Virus record (IMG/VR): IMGVR_UViG_3300017914_001762
Coordinates: 1-36,491 of that record
Direction: 5' to 3' (one strand)
Length of the DNA stretch: 36,491 bases
Origin: a virus
Lineage: Duplodnaviria; Caudoviricetes
Shown: positions 18,127-27,062 of the stretch, piece by piece
How positions within the stretch are numbered: the stretch's first letter is position 1
Layout: each line of letters starts with the position of its first letter
Program-made: the position numbers and the translations under genes
The notes under the pieces: generated by a model
Told to the model about the DNA's origin: nothing
What the model saw: the letters and a program-made list of their open reading frames with translations, nothing else
Database searches by the model: none

Positions 18127-18822
18127 TTAAGCATATGTTTCTTTTAATATTTTCCAAGTAGTATAAGGCCCATCAACTTGATACCACTTGTCTTCAGGGT
18201 GTATCATTTTATCTGCTAATGGTTTATCGTTACCATGTTCGTGTATTCTATCTCCAAAGAAAACCATAGGAGCACCTATTACATCATAAACCTGTGCTTT
18301 ATTTTTTCCTTTAAGATGAATATCAATACTAGTATTGCCTCCAAGTTCTGCTTCAAAGCCTGTAAATAACTCATTGAATTGTTTACATATTCTTATACGT
18401 TCACCGTGTTCTTTATCCCAAGCAAAATATTCATCACGTTGTTCACCAACTGCATTTCTTCCTACTGTACTAAAGTTTATAAGTCCAGTTCTTTTTTCAA
18501 TATGATTACCAAATTTATTTTTGTATGGACTAAAGTCTACTTGTTGTGTTAGCCATTGATCCATATCAGCAGGAGCATTAAGATGTGTCGATTGAACTTC
18601 AGTTCCTTTACGCCACACACTATTACCTGCACATTGAAATACCATTGTACAGTTATCAACTATTTCGTGTCCAATTTGTTCTATAGTTTTTGCTCGATCA
18701 CTACCAGTAACGATAAAAACATTTTTATCTTTCATCCATGAAAGAAGCCAAAGTCTAAAATCAACTGGTATTATTTTTCTACTCTCTGATAGAGTACCGT
18801 CTACGTCAAATACAAAATTCAT
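18127..18822 (-). CDS. HAD-IIB enzyme, eukaryotic-type phosphomannomutase-like
   Basis: FDVDGTL (motif I), VTGSD, IEKRTGLINFS (cap motif of the PMM family), K in KGKNKAQ, and FFGD....GND. Confidence 0.85.
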   Translation of the reverse strand: MNFVFDVDGTLSESRKIIPVDFRLWLLSWMKDKNVFIVTGSDRAKTIEQIGHEIVDNCTMVFQCAGNSVWRKGTEVQSTHLNAPADMDQWLTQQVDFSPYKNKFGNHIEKRTGLINFSTVGRNAVGEQRDEYFAWDKEHGERIRICKQFNELFTGFEAELGGNTSIDIHLKGKNKAQVYDVIGAPMVFFGDRIHEHGNDKPLADKMIHPEDKWYQVDGPYTTWKILKETYA

Positions 18823-19151
18823 TATTGTTCCACAAATTTAAGTAAGGTCATCATAGCCAAGCCAGTTACAGTAGCACTTCCTAATAATGCAATCCAAAAA
18901 TTGTAATTGTATAATGCAACAAACATTGGAAAGAATATTAAACTTACTGTTACAAAGTAAACTGTTTGATATGAAAATGTTTTAAAGGTTTGATAGTCTA
19001 CACCACTATAGTGCATAATAGTTAATGTAATAATACTTACTAAAGGTATTCCCATTATAAATGCACCAGCGGTAGGATTCTTTTGTGCTAGTGTACTTAC
19101 AATACCAATTATTAATCCGCCTATAATAGACTTAATTAAAATATCTGTCAT
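18822..19151 (-). CDS. Four-helix membrane protein (DUF3147/GlpM-like)
   Basis: 109 aa with four hydrophobic segments; K.IIGG.....S..A...P..GA....IPLVS pattern. Confidence 0.6.
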   Translation of the reverse strand: MTDILIKSIIGGLIIGIVSTLAQKNPTAGAFIMGIPLVSIITLTIMHYSGVDYQTFKTFSYQTVYFVTVSLIFFPMFVALYNYNFWIALLGSATVTGLAMMTLLKFVEQ

Positions 19152-20284
19152 TGTTTTACTTTGTCTATTGCGTCTCTTAATTTTTGTGCACCTGCTCTCA
19201 TTCCTTCTGGGTGCTCGTGTATTGCACCTCCAACGTTTGCCATATAATCAATACCAAAGCGTCTTGTAATTTCAGGAATAAGTTCTGCTGTCATACCACA
19301 ACTTAATGTTGGTACAACATTATTTGATGATAGCATATGCATTGTTCTTCTTAATTCGTTTTCGTCGTCGCTTAAATATCCGCCCCACATACCTGTATGA
19401 ATTGTATCAACTCCACATATACTTGCTAGTTTACAAAGTACATACCAACTAATACGATATGCATTCTTTTCACTGCTAATAGTTTTGTCGCCGGATTTTT
19501 GATAGTGTACAAATATTGGTAGTCCTAATTCATTAACACTTTTGTAAACTCCGTGTCCACTCCAGAAGTTAATATGTACTCCATTACCGCCGCCGTCTGC
19601 AACCATTTTAACTCTATCTAGTATATGTAAAGGATCAGAATTAATACAATAGCAGTACACAACATTAGAACCTTTCAAGGCCCGTTGTACGACGTCTATG
19701 CGGGTTTTAAGGGGCAAACAAGACGGGTTCGACATTATCTCATCTTCTTTAATAAAGTCTACTCCACCTTCTACAAAAGCAGTAATAATTTCAACTAATG
19801 CTTTCTCTGTAAGTCCTGTTTTAGGTTTAACAATACTACCTAGTAATGGCTTGTTATAACTACCTACTAGTTCTCTAAATCCTTGTAAACCGTAACGCGG
19901 CTTTTTAGCATCACATAGTTCAAAGTCAATATCTAAGTCTAGTAATTCACAACCGTGGATATAATCTATATCCATTTGTCCACCCATTAGTACACAAAGT
20001 AATTGTGCAATACCATCAGTGGGCCAGTCTATAATTCTATAGGGCCAGCATATTTTAACAATGCCTGATTCTTTACCTGCAAAGTCTTCTGGCTTGCCAA
20101 TAATCTTTGCCGCATACTGACTAATAAGTTCAGGTGTTTCGTATTCGTTTCTTACACTAGGATTGCCTACACTTTGTCCTACGGCTAAACCAAATGCCGC
20201 ACGTTGTAGGTCATTACCTTTTAGTTTGTATGTTGCAGTAAAGTATTCTTTTGGATCTACCGCGTCCACGTATATATCAAGCAT
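19148..20284 (-). CDS. RuBisCO-like protein (form IV, RLP)
   Basis: LLGSIVKPKTGL, GGVDFIKEDE (carbamylated-Lys motif), FVHYQ, GVDTIHTG, SCGM and GGAIHEHPEG..AGA. The loop-6 Lys (K334 equivalent) is not seen (HTGMWGGYL). Confidence 0.92.
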   Translation of the reverse strand: MLDIYVDAVDPKEYFTATYKLKGNDLQRAAFGLAVGQSVGNPSVRNEYETPELISQYAAKIIGKPEDFAGKESGIVKICWPYRIIDWPTDGIAQLLCVLMGGQMDIDYIHGCELLDLDIDFELCDAKKPRYGLQGFRELVGSYNKPLLGSIVKPKTGLTEKALVEIITAFVEGGVDFIKEDEIMSNPSCLPLKTRIDVVQRALKGSNVVYCYCINSDPLHILDRVKMVADGGGNGVHINFWSGHGVYKSVNELGLPIFVHYQKSGDKTISSEKNAYRISWYVLCKLASICGVDTIHTGMWGGYLSDDENELRRTMHMLSSNNVVPTLSCGMTAELIPEITRRFGIDYMANVGGAIHEHPEGMRAGAQKLRDAIDKVKQ

Positions 20285-20301
20285 AGTTTATTTTACCTTC
20301 T

Positions 20302-20631
20302 TTATTCCTTAATGTCAAACATAAACTTGTCATTAGGATCACTAATATTTCTAACAACTGTAAGTTCAACATCTGTTAAGTATTCTACTTGGCTAACTTC
20401 ATAAGGATATAATATAAAAATATCACCTGGTTCAAATATCTCACCATTTAGTTTTATTTTACCCTTACGCATAACATTTATTTCAGTTCCTTTTTTGTGA
20501 AAATGATCCTGATGAAACTCTCCCTTTTTGTGTCTATGAATACCTACTTCAAAGTCTGCTTTCATTACACTAGGTTCAAAGTTTCCTACAAACCATCCAC
20601 CTTTCATATCATCTAGTTTAAACTTTTTCAT
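20302..20631 (-). CDS. Cupin-domain protein
   Basis: GGWFVGNFEP and HFHK..TEIN (HxH...E metal motif), then G.I..NG....PGDI. Confidence 0.8.
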   Translation of the reverse strand: MKKFKLDDMKGGWFVGNFEPSVMKADFEVGIHRHKKGEFHQDHFHKKGTEINVMRKGKIKLNGEIFEPGDIFILYPYEVSQVEYLTDVELTVVRNISDPNDKFMFDIKE

Positions 20632-20912
20632 TTGTGTTCCTGTATTAAATTATATTCATACAATTCTTTTTCTGTATTTACAACAAGCATATCTGGATCA
20701 TGTACGTCCATTAACTTTACTTCTTTAACATATACTTTACACATATCGATTAGTTCTGGATAATCTAAAACTAATTCGTTATCTAAAATAACTGTATCGT
20801 AATTACCTACTTCTAAAGTACGTTGTAAAATACTTCTACCATTACAGGCAACAACGGCAATAGGATAATCCCAACCTAACCATTTATCGTTTGATACAGA
20901 TAGTTTGCCCAT
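20628..20912 (-). CDS. Hypothetical protein (94 aa)
   Basis: ATGA-coupled to the cupin gene; no confident motif. Confidence 0.65.
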   Translation of the reverse strand: MGKLSVSNDKWLGWDYPIAVVACNGRSILQRTLEVGNYDTVILDNELVLDYPELIDMCKVYVKEVKLMDVHDPDMLVVNTEKELYEYNLIQEHK

Positions 20913-21562
20913 CCTTTATGTCCTTCCTCTAACGTATGTCCACCTTTACCTTGTTCCCAATTTTGACTTCTACACATATCAATAAAACTTGGCATAACAT
21001 AATTTACTTCTGTTAGCCATGCAGGATCTGGTTCATCTAGTGCAAACGTTTGAACTAGTTTTACATTTAAACTTTTTGCAATTTGTTGTAAGTTCCACAT
21101 ACGTTCAAACTGCATTTGTTTTCTACTTTCTTTTCCTAATGTTGTTGTATAATACGGGTGCATCTTTTCAAAAGTTTCTTTTAAGAAAGGATCAAAGTCT
21201 TCAATTCGACTATGCCCAGGTAAGTTATAACAAACATTATGATATGGAATATATGCAGGACCTTGCCAGTCAACTGCAACTTCATCTCTTTCAAATGTTG
21301 TCCAACATACAACAACTAATAACTCTGCACCCGGCTTTGTATTACACCATTCACGCATAAAACGTATTGTACGTCTTGCTATTCGACTGCCACTAGTTCC
21401 TCGTAACCCCTCATTGACAAAGGCTGGTATGTCAAGTTTATCTGACAAAAGTTTTGGCCAACTGTTTTGTAATCTGTATGTAGGTGTATTGTCAGTATAA
21501 GGCAAACCTAGTTCGTCGCCTTCTGTCCAACTATCACCATTTGCATACAAACATTTAATCAT
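20876..21562 (-). CDS. SGNH/GDSL-fold protein
   Basis: YANGDSWTEG (block I Ser), N.G..G.S..RI and C-terminal GH....GH..WA. Confidence 0.8.
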   Translation of the reverse strand: MIKCLYANGDSWTEGDELGLPYTDNTPTYRLQNSWPKLLSDKLDIPAFVNEGLRGTSGSRIARRTIRFMREWCNTKPGAELLVVVCWTTFERDEVAVDWQGPAYIPYHNVCYNLPGHSRIEDFDPFLKETFEKMHPYYTTTLGKESRKQMQFERMWNLQQIAKSLNVKLVQTFALDEPDPAWLTEVNYVMPSFIDMCRSQNWEQGKGGHTLEEGHKGWANYLYQTING

Positions 21563-21563
21563 G

Positions 21564-22286
21564 TTAACCTTTCCACCAAGTGTTATGATAGTTTGTTAAA
21601 TCTGCTGGAGTACCTACAGGACTAAAATTATGTGCTTGTACTTCGTAAGGTTTAACAATACAATCTTTAATTGTGTAGTTGTAAATAGGTGCTAGATAAA
21701 ATTCGTTATTATGCCTATCATTATTAGCAATCATTTGTTCAGCACCTTTAACAAATAAACTTCCTTTACTCCAATGATATAAGCCAACAGTAGCCATGTT
21801 ACTAATTGCAACTTTCTCTGCGGCTTCTGTGATGTGCCCTTCTTCGTTAACCTTAACAAAACTATGTTTGATATGATTATGTGGGTAGGTCATTACCCAA
21901 CTAACGTGTGGCTCGAGTTTACACTTTTCTAAAAACATTGAACTATCCCAATGTAATACTTGGTCACTGTTAATACTAATTAAAGGTTCGTCGTTGTTTA
22001 TAAATTCTTTTGCTTTTAATAAACTACAAGCGGCTCCTTCTGTTACATGGTCAAGTGTAACTATGTTAACAGTTTCAGCAAAACTTTTTAAGTGTTCTTC
22101 AAGCCATGGATAATTGGTCATATGCTCTTGTTGTACAACAAAAGTATACTTGCCGTCAATGTCTAAACTTTCTACTGAACTTTGGATCATTGTTGTGGCA
22201 CCAACTCTTACTAAAGGCTTTGGTATATCATAACCTGCTTCTTTGAATCTTGTGCCGGCGCCAGCCATGCCAATTATTATATTCAT
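21564..22286 (-). CDS. Sugar-phosphate nucleotidyltransferase
   Basis: MAGAGTRF...GY..PKPL signature, TEGAA, NSDQ, AEK, NEFYLAPIYN and GTP.DL. Confidence 0.88.
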   Translation of the reverse strand: MNIIIGMAGAGTRFKEAGYDIPKPLVRVGATTMIQSSVESLDIDGKYTFVVQQEHMTNYPWLEEHLKSFAETVNIVTLDHVTEGAACSLLKAKEFINNDEPLISINSDQVLHWDSSMFLEKCKLEPHVSWVMTYPHNHIKHSFVKVNEEGHITEAAEKVAISNMATVGLYHWSKGSLFVKGAEQMIANNDRHNNEFYLAPIYNYTIKDCIVKPYEVQAHNFSPVGTPADLTNYHNTWWKG

Positions 22287-23906: not shown

Positions 23907-24754
23907 AAGTTATTCTCCTTGATAAAGCGATGCATTTCTTCTGCCCACAAGTCGTGTCCATATTCATTAGGGTGCATACCACTTATTACTTTTGCTTTAT
24001 CATCTTTTTGTGTTATATAACTGTAGCAACTATGTGGTGCAGTATCTTTTCCATAGAAGTTTTTACTGCTTATTTGTTCCCATAGCCATCCATCATTTTG
24101 TCCATTGAAGTGAAAGTGCCAACGTGGATCTGAATTACCTACTTCCATCTTTTCTGTTTCACTATTAATATAACCTTTGTCTTCCCATTGATTAATTCCA
24201 GTTTCATCTACATTATAAAATGCTTGAAAGAAAGCATATTTAATTTTGTGTACTTTAAAAAAGTTTTCTAATGTAATAACTTGTTGTACATAACGATTAA
24301 TATATTCTTCTTTGTTCCACAAGTATAATCTGTAATTGTCGAAGAAAGGTTGCATACCTCTTTGATGATATTCGTGATTAGTTTGGTTAGGCCATATAGT
24401 AGTCCAACCATGCTGATGTACATCAACTGGATCTCTATAATAAAAGTCTTTACGTTCTGGACTTGTTAATCCAACAACTACAAACAAATCATTTTCACAA
24501 TCAATGCCTGGCTTAATATAGTGTTGTGTAATCCAACTTAATGTTAAACGCACTATTCTATCATTACTTGCCGCAGGATAAGATATGTTAGTAAAGTCAT
24601 CTGCATCTAAAAGTTTTGCCAACTTTGTAGGCCATATTCTAGGAATACGATAAGCATTATTCTCACCGTCCCAATCACTAACTGTATCTGGTAAGTTAGG
24701 ATCTTTTATTTCACTTCCAAATGTCCAACTGTCGCCTGCTGTTAATAAATGCAT
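23900..24754 (-). CDS. SGNH/GDSL-fold protein
   Basis: TAGDSWTFG, NISYPAASNDRI, TSPER and HPNEYGH..WA. Confidence 0.82.
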   Translation of the reverse strand: MHLLTAGDSWTFGSEIKDPNLPDTVSDWDGENNAYRIPRIWPTKLAKLLDADDFTNISYPAASNDRIVRLTLSWITQHYIKPGIDCENDLFVVVGLTSPERKDFYYRDPVDVHQHGWTTIWPNQTNHEYHQRGMQPFFDNYRLYLWNKEEYINRYVQQVITLENFFKVHKIKYAFFQAFYNVDETGINQWEDKGYINSETEKMEVGNSDPRWHFHFNGQNDGWLWEQISSKNFYGKDTAPHSCYSYITQKDDKAKVISGMHPNEYGHDLWAEEMHRFIKENNLW

Positions 24755-25503
24755 TAGTACGCCTTTTTAATTTCTTCAAATTGTGTTTCAGGATCTAAAT
24801 CTTCTACACTAGTTCTCCACAATGTTTCTAGTAGTTGTGGGTTAACTTGTTCTAATTTAATGTTTCTTTTCAATGCTTGTTGATAAATTAAAGTTCCAGG
24901 ACTTAACATACTATCTTCTGGATCTTGCATATTGCCATTCATTAATTGTAAGTAACGTGGAAACGCCTCCCAATTATAATAGCGAAATGTATCACAAGCA
25001 ATATCCATACTAGGACTATCTCCCCAAAAGATAATATCACTTAATCCGTGCTTGCCAACATCAGTATGAACTAAACCTCTGTTACCAATACTGTAATAAA
25101 TTGTTCTGTCTTCAATTTGCCTATCGCCAAATGTTTGTCCATTTGGAGTTAGCATATCGTATCTACATTTGATAACTCTATTATATCTAAACGCACGATG
25201 TATCTCATATCTACGTTTCATAAAGTTTGCGTGTTGTATACTGTACAACATATTACCAAACGGTCCACTGTGATTAATAGGTTCACTTACTTTAAAGTCT
25301 ACTAAAAAATGATGACTATTTTCAATGTGTGCTTTTAGCAATTCAAAGTCAGTTAATTTGTGTACATTGTCTCCTGTTGCACTCCAAGTATGACAAAATA
25401 AATCTGCTTGAAATTCTTTAAAGTATTCTAGTATGCGTGGCATAGCCTTATTAAAAGTTCTTAATTCGCCACTAAAACAAATTGCAGTATTAGACTGTTT
25501 CAT
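24754..25503 (-). CDS. Putative glycosyltransferase-like protein
   Basis: AICFSGELR, D.F.HTW, M.YSI, IK.RYD and SD..F.G. Tandem paralog of 25490..26227. I recall this pattern from polysaccharide loci; function inferred. Confidence 0.5.
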   Translation of the reverse strand: MKQSNTAICFSGELRTFNKAMPRILEYFKEFQADLFCHTWSATGDNVHKLTDFELLKAHIENSHHFLVDFKVSEPINHSGPFGNMLYSIQHANFMKRRYEIHRAFRYNRVIKCRYDMLTPNGQTFGDRQIEDRTIYYSIGNRGLVHTDVGKHGLSDIIFWGDSPSMDIACDTFRYYNWEAFPRYLQLMNGNMQDPEDSMLSPGTLIYQQALKRNIKLEQVNPQLLETLWRTSVEDLDPETQFEEIKKAY

Positions 25504-26227
25504 AATCACCGCCCCCTGTCATGTGTTCTGCTTTTGGTCTTACTAATTTTATTGGTGGATAAATTTGTTCAAGTTTTAAATTACATTCTTTTAAGTAGTA
25601 AGCAAAAACGTGTTCCGGTCCATAGTGTAAATCATTATTCATATTAAAAAAGTTAATAGGGTGTCTGCTAAAATGACTAAAGAAGTCACAACTAACATCA
25701 TACACATCTGTTGGTGCTTGCCAATATAAATCGCCGACTCTCATTCTATGACCTTGTTGGTCAAATCCTAAATGTATAACTTGTACTGTATCTTTTTTTG
25801 GTTCTGGTACTTGCCATTGTTCATCAAACATAGTGTCCCAACGAAGTCTAATACACAAATCAAAGTTACTGTTGTTTTCTATTTCATAACGCTTTTTCAT
25901 AAATGCAGAATACATAACTCCGTAAAATTGACTTTGATAGTTTACATCATGTAATGCTTGATCCAATCCTACTGGAAACTCTATTTGTTTCATTACTGTT
26001 AAGTCTAAATTTGGAAGTTCTCTTTTTAATTCTTGTATTTCGTTATTACTGACTTCTTCTAAGTCGTCAACGCCTTTTGTAACTTTTACAAAGTTTGGAG
26101 CACTACGAGTTGTCCACGTGTGTCCAAAGTAATGTACTTCATGTTCACTAAATGTTTGTAACCAAGTAGGTAAACATTTACGCCAACTTTGTCTTAACTG
26201 TCCACTTAAACAAACTGCTATTTTCAT
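25490..26227 (-). CDS. Putative glycosyltransferase-like protein
   Basis: MKIAVCLSGQLR, F.HTW, SQFY, FD..IRLRWD and PE motifs. Confidence 0.5.
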   Translation of the reverse strand: MKIAVCLSGQLRQSWRKCLPTWLQTFSEHEVHYFGHTWTTRSAPNFVKVTKGVDDLEEVSNNEIQELKRELPNLDLTVMKQIEFPVGLDQALHDVNYQSQFYGVMYSAFMKKRYEIENNSNFDLCIRLRWDTMFDEQWQVPEPKKDTVQVIHLGFDQQGHRMRVGDLYWQAPTDVYDVSCDFFSHFSRHPINFFNMNNDLHYGPEHVFAYYLKECNLKLEQIYPPIKLVRPKAEHMTGGGDYETV

Positions 26228-26228
26228 A

Positions 26229-26402
26229 TTACCACCATCCTAATACTCTGCCATTACCTACAATAATAAACAAGCAAGTAACAATATGTAATAATACCCA
26301 AAAGGTTCTTATTACAAGAACTTTTTTATCATAAGGTTCAGTTTTTGTATCGTCGTATGACCCTAGTGCATACATCCATATTTTTAATAATTCTTTTACC
26401 AT
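26229..26402 (-). CDS. Small membrane protein (57 aa), not in ORF track
   Basis: Manual translation MVKELLKIWMYALGSYDDTKTEPYDKKVLVIRTFWVLLHIVTCLFIIVGNGRVLGWW*. Fills the gap exactly; one hydrophobic C-terminal helix. Confidence 0.8.
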   Translation of the reverse strand: MVKELLKIWMYALGSYDDTKTEPYDKKVLVIRTFWVLLHIVTCLFIIVGNGRVLGWW

Positions 26403-26644
26403 TGTATCCAGTTATATATTCCACGTATTGCTAAACACAAATACATAAGTTCCATTAATGCTCTCGGAATGTCTCGGTCTTTGTAACCCATGTATAGCCA
26501 AATGCTACAACTTACACAGGCAACTGCCCAGCCCATCCATTGTATTTCTGCATTACCACCCGACAGTAGAAATGCACTTAACATAGCAAGAGCAAATCCT
26601 AGCCATCTTACTCCATTAAGATTTTGATAAAATCGTATTTTCAT
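26396..26644 (-). CDS. Small multi-pass membrane protein (82 aa)
   Basis: Three hydrophobic segments with W.Y.GYK; resembles 7607..7834. Confidence 0.72.
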   Translation of the reverse strand: MKIRFYQNLNGVRWLGFALAMLSAFLLSGGNAEIQWMGWAVACVSCSIWLYMGYKDRDIPRALMELMYLCLAIRGIYNWIQW

Positions 26645-27062
26645 ACTTGCTCACCCAATCTGAACAAATACCATAGCAACCTTTTGGAATAGTATCTTGT
26701 TCTTGTTGCAAACAAATAACACTCATGTTAGTAACTTGTTTGTAAGGATATGTCCAAATATATCCTCTGCTTGTTAATGTTCGTTCATCTTGTTCATGCC
26801 AAAAACAATGTATGTTGTTTCTTAACATGAAGTGTAATGCTTCTAGATTTTTTGCATGATTCCAAAATGCTGGATTGCTTATAAAGTTTGCAGTAACTTC
26901 ATAAGTTGGTTCATCATGCCCTAACCAAATTTTATCTTTTATTACCCATACATCAACTTCGCAGTCATATCCCTTATCAACTGCGTGGATCAAATACTCT
27001 GGGTTATTTTCTCTTTCAGTATCTGGTCCTACGGTGTTTCCTCTATGGGCAATTAGTTTCAT
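26616..27062 (-). CDS. Glycerophosphodiester phosphodiesterase (GDPD)-like protein, short
   Basis: IAHRG, EN, CEVDV, LGHD and terminal GICSD. Confidence 0.8.
   Translation of the reverse strand: MKLIAHRGNTVGPDTERENNPEYLIHAVDKGYDCEVDVWVIKDKIWLGHDEPTYEVTANFISNPAFWNHAKNLEALHFMLRNNIHCFWHEQDERTLTSRGYIWTYPYKQVTNMSVICLQQEQDTIPKGCYGICSDWVSKYENTILSKS

What the first reader, a model, noticed from the sequence alone, without database searches (positions are those of the whole stretch)
18127..22286. Phage RuBisCO-like protein inside an apparent sugar-nucleotide biosynthesis module
Seen: an RLP retaining KPK, GxDFIKEDE and both His motifs, but with Glu after the carbamylated Lys (KEDE versus KDDE), HYQ where RuBisCO has HR, and no loop-6 Lys. 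It sits in the same run as a cupin, a sugar-phosphate nucleotidyltransferase and a PMM-type HAD enzyme. Established: RLPs do not fix CO2. Characterised ones catalyse enolisation-based chemistry on ketose-type substrates in salvage or catabolic pathways (methionine salvage enolase/isomerase, apionate and hamamelonate catabolism). Inference: here the RLP is anabolic, making an unusual ketose or branched-chain sugar phosphate that the HAD enzyme, cupin and nucleotidyltransferase convert to an NDP-sugar for the adjacent glycosyltransferases. No methionine-salvage genes are in the window.
Basis: partly seen in the sequence, partly recalled or inferred. Interest (0 to 1): 0.84.

Follow-up and report, generated by a model that had tools for sequence, protein, structure and literature searches.

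The report
Phage RuBisCO relative feeding keto-sugar activation
A large phage carries an intact RuBisCO relative that lacks the residues for CO2 fixation and sits in a conserved cassette with a sugar nucleotidyltransferase; sister cassettes carry a phosphatase-type enzyme in its place, so it likely reshapes a keto-sugar phosphate that would then be activated and attached to a glycan, an untested building role for this enzyme family.

Summary
The genes are real. The 378-aa protein has the RuBisCO fold and groups with a Beckwithbacteria homologue, so it most likely belongs to Jaffe's phage 'Form IV-like' clade, whose function is open. This scan noted the cassette before on other DNA.

New here: (1) a sister cassette keeps the same back end but has a beta-PGM-type HAD instead of the RLP, in phages and in two bacterial groups; (2) the nucleotidyltransferase and glycosyltransferase families are homologous to genes of E. 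coli capsule loci of the fructose-branch (K4/BcbEFG) type. Best reading: a non-carboxylating ketose-phosphate isomerase/epimerase feeding an activated-ketose pathway (about 50%). The sugar is unidentified; known xylulose clusters do not support a xylulose product. No methionine-salvage context.

The parts
19148..20284 (-). RuBisCO-like protein, 378 aa, phage/Beckwithbacteria 'Form IV-like' clade; keeps K175, K177, K201, D203, E204, H327, S379, G381, G403, G404 equivalents; E60->G36, T65->N41, N123->G102, H294->Q262 (likely), R295->K263, H298->D266, K334->Y303
   Evidence: pLDDT 95; Z 42.6 to 2CWX, rmsd 2.1, 365 aligned
20302..20631 (-). cupin, 109 aa, H43-x-H45-x4-E50; core partner (63 of 80 loci; fused to the NTase or to RLP+NTase elsewhere)
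   Evidence: (phrog_24762)
21564..22286 (-). nucleotidyltransferase, 240 aa; core partner (78 of 80 loci); nearest solved relative V. cholerae 4EVW; homologous to the 241-aa gene of a K4-order E. coli capsule locus
   Evidence: profile E 1.5e-4 to GDPD 7E0V
25490..26227 (-). predicted GT-A fold glycosyltransferase (DUF7796-like, RxD motif); family profile hits the 477-aa gene of the K4-order locus
   Evidence: pLDDT 86.5; Z 13.1 to BoGT6a, rmsd 3.4, 187 aligned
24754..25509 (-). second member of the same glycosyltransferase-like family
   Evidence: (phrog_13607)
18127..18822 (-). PMM-type HAD-IIB enzyme; neighbour in only 11 of 80 loci (5 of 50 clusters), not core
18822..19151 (-). small hydrophobic protein, PRK09272-like below cut-off; not conserved with the module
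20628..21562 (-). two inserted genes (94-aa unknown; 228-aa DUF6071/SGNH-like), found only in close relatives (6 and 12 of 80 loci)

Best explanation
The RLP is the front end of a conserved RLP-cupin-nucleotidyltransferase-phosphodiesterase-glycosyltransferase cassette and likely acts as a non-carboxylating isomerase/epimerase that turns a common host ketose phosphate into a ketose 1-phosphate, which the other enzymes would activate and transfer to a glycan. Shown: fold, residue pattern, synteny, fusions, alternation with a beta-PGM-type HAD, homology of the back end to fructose-branch capsule genes. Inferred: Mg/carbamate (K179, D181, E182) enolises the substrate with its phosphate in the intact P1 site; without E60, N123, H294 and K334 the enediolate is reprotonated instead of carboxylated. 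By analogy with the R. rubrum/R. palustris RLP 1,3-isomerase this could be xylulose 5-P <-> ribulose 1-P or ribulose 5-P <-> xylulose 1-P, which needs no phosphatase and so would explain why a HAD mutase/phosphatase can stand in for the RLP. Further inferred, weaker: the cupin adjusts stereochemistry; the GDPD-like enzyme, which is present where the K4-type kinase-like gene is absent, moves the phosphate to the anomeric C2 through a 1,2-cyclic phosphate; the NTase makes the NDP/NMP-ketose; the GT-A proteins transfer it to a virion or host-surface glycan.
For: Synteny within 8 kb in the best 80 of 201 viral loci: NTase 78, GDPD-like 68, cupin 63, GT-like 60, beta-PGM HAD 7, PMM HAD 11; after clustering RLPs at 90%: 49, 43, 40, 38, 3, 5 of 50. 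Fusions: 24 of 24 longer homologues are RLP-NTase (2 of them RLP-NTase-cupin) and P0105 is NTase-RLP. Sister module: best 80 of 152 HAD-NTase loci carry GDPD 52, GT 59, cupin 5, RLP 3. Cells: in 251 Pelagibacteraceae-family genomes, 4 strong NTase hits, 1 beside an RLP and 3 HAD-NTase + GDPD with no RLP in the genome; in 250 scored genomes of the order of G003, 5 NTase loci, 1 with RLP, 4 with HAD and no RLP. 71 HAD-fused NTases nest inside RLP-linked NTases (FastTree 0.89-0.91) and share 22 of 23 conserved sites; the 5 Kfo-type NTases share 20 of 23. NTase profile hits the 241-aa gene (E 3e-40) and the GT profile the 477-aa gene (E 4e-20) of a K4-order locus whose HAD passes TIGR01689 EcbF-BcbF; bcbE, bcbG and kfoE mutants lack the fructose branch (PMC13552107, PMC8858990 passages). 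An RLP 1,3-isomerase on a pentulose 1-phosphate is established (PMC5893883 passages).
Against: No activity was measured and no glycan structure is tied to an RLP cassette. Similarity to the Kfo-type NTase is only 25-27%. The gene names kfoD/kfoH/kfoI for L183 come from gene order and sizes that I recall, not from the record; I did not obtain BcbG itself; the review read calls KfoE, not KfoD, the fructosyltransferase. Known xylulose loci give no support: the Y. enterocolitica O:10 cluster text lists no such genes and the E. coli review finds no precursor genes for O95/O97; C. jejuni HS1 adds fructose with one gene, and an HS1/8 insertion whose annotation resembles the HAD module gave no second capsule. 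K263 (K/R 183 of 195), K267 and H296 leave a partly basic P2 site, which fits a bisphosphate as well. The either/or pattern has exceptions (7 of 80 loci; 2 of 10 whole phage records) and rests on few independent events, since the HAD fusions form one clade and 80 loci collapse to 11 clusters.
Confidence: 0.5

Rival explanations
1. The RLP makes a branched-chain sugar phosphate (apiose/hamamelose type) by carbon-skeleton rearrangement or by carboxylation without cleavage, and the cassette activates that.
For: Characterised RLPs handle branched sugar acids (OiaX model hit at E 2e-30, far below cut-off; other chemistry recalled). New invariant residues ring the site (R45, E49, D105, H237, N239, Q262, Y303, C329).
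Against: No reductase or kinase among the recurring neighbours; a plain HAD would not replace C-C chemistry, yet it alternates with the RLP before a near-identical NTase; K334 and N123 are lost.
Confidence: 0.15
2. The RLP acts on a bisphosphate (for example RuBP/XuBP 3-epimerase or 3-ulose former) with a host or PMM-type phosphatase finishing the job, or the cassette makes an NDP-polyol/phosphodiester unit, not a ketoside.
For: Partly basic P2 site (K263, K267, H296); GDPD-like partner acts on phosphodiesters; PMM-type HAD lies next to the RLP in this lineage.
Against: Neither HAD type is near the RLP in most loci (18 of 80 have one); the transferases have a GT-A fold; no polyol dehydrogenase recurs.
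Confidence: 0.17
3. [quoted passage not shown]
For: RLP + cupin is the known rlp1/RPA2170 pairing; six radical SAM genes lie in the window; one close relative has a nucleosidase-like gene inside the cassette (L001).
Against: MtnW models score 103-131 bits against cut-offs of 409-514; the MtnW lysine at position 123 is Gly102 (role recalled); the MtnA family PF01008 is found in 0 of 5 RLP phage records while 9 of 14 controls ring; fusions are to the NTase; radical SAM genes are near the RLP in only 22 of 80 loci.
Confidence: 0.06
4. The protein is a CO2-fixing RuBisCO or a non-catalytic ligand-binding partner.
For: Best sequence and structure match is form III RuBisCO 2CWX.
Against: E60, T65, N123, H298, K334 and likely H294 are replaced in all family members; the metal/carbamate residues are invariant, as for an enzyme; 144 bits against a form III cut-off of 497.
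Confidence: 0.05

Closest known systems
'Form IV-like' RuBisCO-related proteins of phages and Beckwithbacteria (Jaffe et al., 10.1101/386292)
   Same: Phage-encoded, divergent key residues, one clade with a Beckwithbacteria sequence (L084; support 100/99); carriers include gp23-bearing phages.
   Different: That paper leaves function unclear and its main text never uses the word 'sugar'; the cassette, fusions and HAD alternation are not in the passages read. Its Fig. S1 (genomic context) could not be seen.
DeepYkr RLP, 5-methylthioribulose-1-P 1,3-isomerase of R. rubrum/R. palustris (PMC5893883)
   Same: Non-carboxylating RLP beside a cupin; model for the proposed carbonyl shift on a pentulose 1-phosphate.
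   Different: Catabolic/salvage context with MtnP and MtnA, absent here; no NTase; the R. palustris RLP structures 3QFW and 2QYG are only 21% identical.
Fructose-branch systems of bacterial capsules (E. coli K4 kfo genes; P. multocida BcbEFG)
   Same: Homologous NTase and GT-like protein; built for adding a side-branch sugar.
   Different: They use a BcbF-type HAD and a ~520-aa kinase-like protein and have no RLP, cupin or GDPD hit.
HAD-NTase + GDPD + GT cassette of cultured cyanophages (S-PRM1, S-CAM9, B3) and bacteria
   Same: Same back end, NTases nested in the same tree.
   Different: beta-PGM-type HAD in place of the RLP; cupin rare (5 of 80); itself uncharacterised.

Membership tests
RuBisCO large-subunit superfamily | N-terminal alpha/beta domain plus TIM barrel with K201-x-D203-E204 | tested here: met
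   PF00016 over cut-off; model pLDDT 95, Z 42.6 to 2CWX over 365 residues; KEDE 195/195
Bona fide RuBisCO (forms I-III) | E60, T65, N123, H294, R295, H298, K334 conserved | tested here: not met
   G36, N41, G102, Q262, K263, D266, Y303; E60, T65, N123, K334 losses hold in either register
Form IV-like (Jaffe) | Clade of phage sequences with Beckwithbacteria homologues | tested here: met
Form IV-like (Jaffe) | Outgroup to all other RLPs | tested here: inconclusive
   Trees lacked YkrW, DeepYkr and Photo references; deep branches unsupported
IV-YkrW / MtnW enolase | Lys at the Asn123 position (K98, role recalled) and NCBIfam cut-off | tested here: not met
   Gly102 aligned to that Lys; 103-131 bits vs 409-514
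IV-DeepYkr MTRu-1-P 1,3-isomerase | MtnP/MtnA context and methylsulfurylase-type cupin | tested here: inconclusive
   PF01008 in 0 of 5 phage records, but a host could supply it; no direct cupin comparison was possible
IV-DeepYkr MTRu-1-P 1,3-isomerase | 1,3-isomerase activity | not testable with these tools
   needs an assay
OiaX/OiaT acid-sugar RLPs | EQS/DQS-x-GT motif, HR at 294-295, loop-6 Lys, four-carbon acid-sugar kinase neighbour | tested here: not met
   106 bits vs 700; separate clade; kinase neighbour seen in references but not among recurring neighbours
K4/BcbEFG fructose-branch system | NTase plus GT-like transferase of these families | tested here: met
   profile E 3e-40 and 4e-20; names of the K4 genes recalled from order and size
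K4/BcbEFG fructose-branch system | BcbF-type HAD and BcbE/KfoE kinase-like protein | tested here: not met
   none among 41 window ORFs or the recurring families of 80 loci

The most novel reading that the evidence does not exclude
The phage Form IV-like clade is the first anabolic branch of the RuBisCO superfamily: a ketose-phosphate 'end-swapping' isomerase without His294 that, with a cut-down GDPD acting as a cyclic-phosphate mutase, forms a kinase-free route to nucleotide-activated ketoses, interchangeable with a HAD-based route, and used by phages, giant viruses and bacteria to put keto-sugars on glycans.
Probability: 0.25. Interest if true: 0.88.

Novelty: new variant of a known kind. Interest (0 to 1): 0.68.

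Why it matters
It gives a testable function to a RuBisCO clade described in 2018 as functionally unclear, with at least 2,193 sequence clusters of the superfamily hit and hundreds near 50% identity. RLPs characterised so far salvage or degrade; one that builds a glycan precursor, without His294, would widen what the RuBisCO scaffold can do. The same work could settle how ketose donors for capsule branches are made, for which my searches found no named nucleotide donor. The HAD twin in cultured cyanophages offers a practical handle: both cassettes should give the same product.

Tried and rejected
PMM-type HAD as pathway member: rejected (11 of 80 loci). My first mapping (H260 = His294, P2 site fully lost) was dropped. 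Xylulose as product: no support from Y. enterocolitica O:10 or E. coli O95/O97 texts; three blastn searches of E. coli genomes with cassette DNA found nothing, so wesB/wesH were not tested. GT family as WavE relative: not supported (HHalign probability 0.08 with only two WavE sequences). RLP in GenBank phages: no match in 50,697 records; plasmid matches were all under 30% identity in the 40 of 374 rows shown. The 21 weaker hits among 351 genomes of the Beckwithbacteria class are bona fide form III-type RuBisCOs, mostly beside e2b2-like genes, not this family. NCLDV capsid search rang nowhere and is uninformative. Sequence search of the GT profile against PDB gave only chance hits. No complex prediction, read mapping or metagenome scan was run. 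Paper searches returned little of use.
Full report
Setting. The window is a linear virus record estimated 10% complete, all genes on the - strand, GC 30-41% with no break at the finding. Virion genes fill 30.4-36.3 kb and a glycan-tailoring island the rest. The closest long relative (RLP 85% identical, 307 kb) has a gp23 capsid gene, as do 4 of 5 carriers tested.

Observation. The four named genes are intact and tightly packed. The 378-aa protein passes PF00016 but none of six NCBIfam RuBisCO/RLP cut-offs. Its model (pLDDT 95) matches RuBisCO and RLP structures at Z 36-43 against 18 for the next fold. In 195 distinct homologues, K153, K155, K179, E180, D181, E182, S328, G330, G352, G353 are invariant, so the carbamate/Mg and P1 sites are kept; G36, N41, G102 and Y303 replace E60, T65, N123 and K334 in all (the reference list of active-site residues is from a figure legend of PMC9570433). 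I had no coordinates for a direct superposition. Under the favoured register the family has lost His294, which from memory is kept in most RLP clades.

Family. 2,193 clusters of the superfamily were hit, the listed 120 at 51-99%. A tree of 35 rows puts 27 family members, including the window protein and a Beckwithbacteria copy, in one clade (100/99). Jaffe et al. (10.1101/386292; abstract, outline and 12 passages read) reported about 90 such phage sequences and three from Beckwithbacteria as 'Form IV-like', function unclear. Their supplement with the gene context was not visible and may already label the neighbours. The phage RLP as such is therefore known. This scan also described the cassette on other genomes (8 notes shown from 89 windows); I reached the synteny result before that look-up and do not count the notes as evidence.

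Module. Within 8 kb of the RLP in the best 80 of 201 viral loci: NTase 78, GDPD-like 68, cupin 63, GT-like 60, PMM-type HAD 11; in the 43 loci with full flanks NTase 43, GDPD 38, cupin 35; in 50 clusters at 90% identity 49, 43, 40, 38 and 5. The profiles were built from these loci. Eight of 9 genome-collection loci have the NTase. All 24 longer homologues are RLP-NTase fusions, two with the cupin as well, and P0105 has the reverse order. The GT-like protein at 25490-26227 is predicted to have a GT-A fold. So the PMM enzyme drops out and genes at 24754-27062 come in.

A twin cassette. Cultured phages have no RLP match, but 20 records have the NTase; of four opened, three have it fused to a HAD beside GDPD-like and GT genes and one fused to a phosphatase-annotated domain. 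A scan with a HAD-NTase fusion gave 152 loci; in the best 80, GDPD 52, GT 59, cupin 5, RLP 3, these three being contigs already in the RLP set. The HAD is beta-PGM-like and is near the RLP in 7 of 80 loci; searches of 10 whole RLP phage records found it in 2, both known from flanks. In cells the pattern repeats: 1 RLP versus 3 HAD cassettes among 251 genomes of the family of G001, and 1 versus 4 among 250 scored genomes of the order of G003; these genomes are incomplete. HAD-fused NTases nest within RLP-linked ones and share 22 of 23 conserved sites. The simplest reading is that RLP (with cupin) and HAD deliver the same or a similar substrate. The number of independent swaps is small.

What kind of sugar. 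The NTase's only PDB hit is V. cholerae 4EVW. Its profile hits genes of five enterobacterial/Aeromonas capsule or O-antigen loci at E 1e-45 to 3e-40, and the GT profile hits a protein in three of them at E 3e-32 to 4e-20. One locus has the K4 gene order, and its small HAD passes the EcbF-BcbF family; I name its genes kfoD, kfoI, kfoE, kfoH from recalled order and size. Passages of PMC13552107 show that bcbE and bcbG mutants lose the fructose branch, and of PMC8858990 that kfoE deletion gives unfructosylated chondroitin. This points to a ketose donor, at 25-27% identity. Against a xylulose product: passages of PMC11380512 and PMC7685785 (and its supplement) show no such genes in xylulose O-antigen clusters; passages of PMC7901785 show a one-gene fructose transferase and no product from a similar-looking insertion.

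Mechanism. An RLP that enolises but cannot carboxylate can only move protons. Passages of PMC5893883 describe an RLP converting 5-methylthioribulose 1-P to 1-methylthioxylulose 5-P and 1-methylthioribulose 5-P. The same shift on plain pentulose phosphates would yield a ketose 1-phosphate from a pentose-phosphate-pathway metabolite without a phosphatase, the product a HAD mutase or bisphosphatase would also give. The roles given to cupin, GDPD-like enzyme and transferases are inference. Methionine salvage is unlikely: the MtnW lysine is absent, PF01008 was found in 0 of 5 carriers with 9 of 14 controls positive, and the fusions are to the NTase.

Novelty and verdict. Searches of the held library found no paper with 'rubisco-like protein', 'nucleotidyltransferase' and 'glycosyltransferase' together, none naming a CMP/CDP-ketose donor by six terms, and none with 'form IV-like' among the 15 listed since 2019; subscription journals are mostly outside the library. 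A word look-up in the scan's notes found no earlier mention of the KfoD/BcbG link. Verdict: a known but uncharacterised RLP clade in a well-supported anabolic glycan cassette; new variant of a known kind; linkage to sugar activation about 90%, ketose-phosphate isomerase/epimerase about 50%, the full kinase-free route about 25%; interest 0.68.

Noticed in passing
window:881-18134 (-): Six radical SAM/SPASM ('twitch') genes, a carbamoyltransferase, two UDP-glucose dehydrogenases, an amidinotransferase-like gene, a DegT-like aminotransferase, a 2OG-type hydroxylase and a cytidylyltransferase in one run: a large glycan-tailoring island.
   Followed up: no
window:20876-24754 (-): Four DUF6071/SGNH-like paralogues, possible acyl- or phospho-modifying enzymes.
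   Followed up: no
window:30418-36253 (-): Virion structural and tail-fibre-like genes directly upstream and on the same strand as the glycan island, compatible with virion glycosylation. The record is about 10% complete; the closest long relative is 307 kb with gp23.
   Followed up: partly
L028, L038, L040, L066: Loci with an NTase-cupin fusion on the opposite strand; L066 is a GVMAG contig and their NTases group with the triple fusions P0241/P0242, suggesting a giant-virus branch of the cassette.
   Followed up: partly
L081, L084, L086: The Patescibacteria/Beckwithbacteria/Planctomycetota copies have Phe at position 260 and lie in glycosyltransferase-rich loci.
   Followed up: partly
L181:9854-12566: An E. 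coli O20/O137-type O-antigen locus begins with the BcbF-type HAD, ~530-aa and NTase trio, which predicts a ketose in that O-antigen.
   Followed up: no
L202, L204, L218, L219: Form III-type RuBisCO fused to an e2b2-like isomerase domain in four genomes of the Beckwithbacteria class.
   Followed up: no
L087, L089: Contigs filed under Bacteroidota and Balneola MAGs look like T4-type phage DNA by gene content.
   Followed up: no
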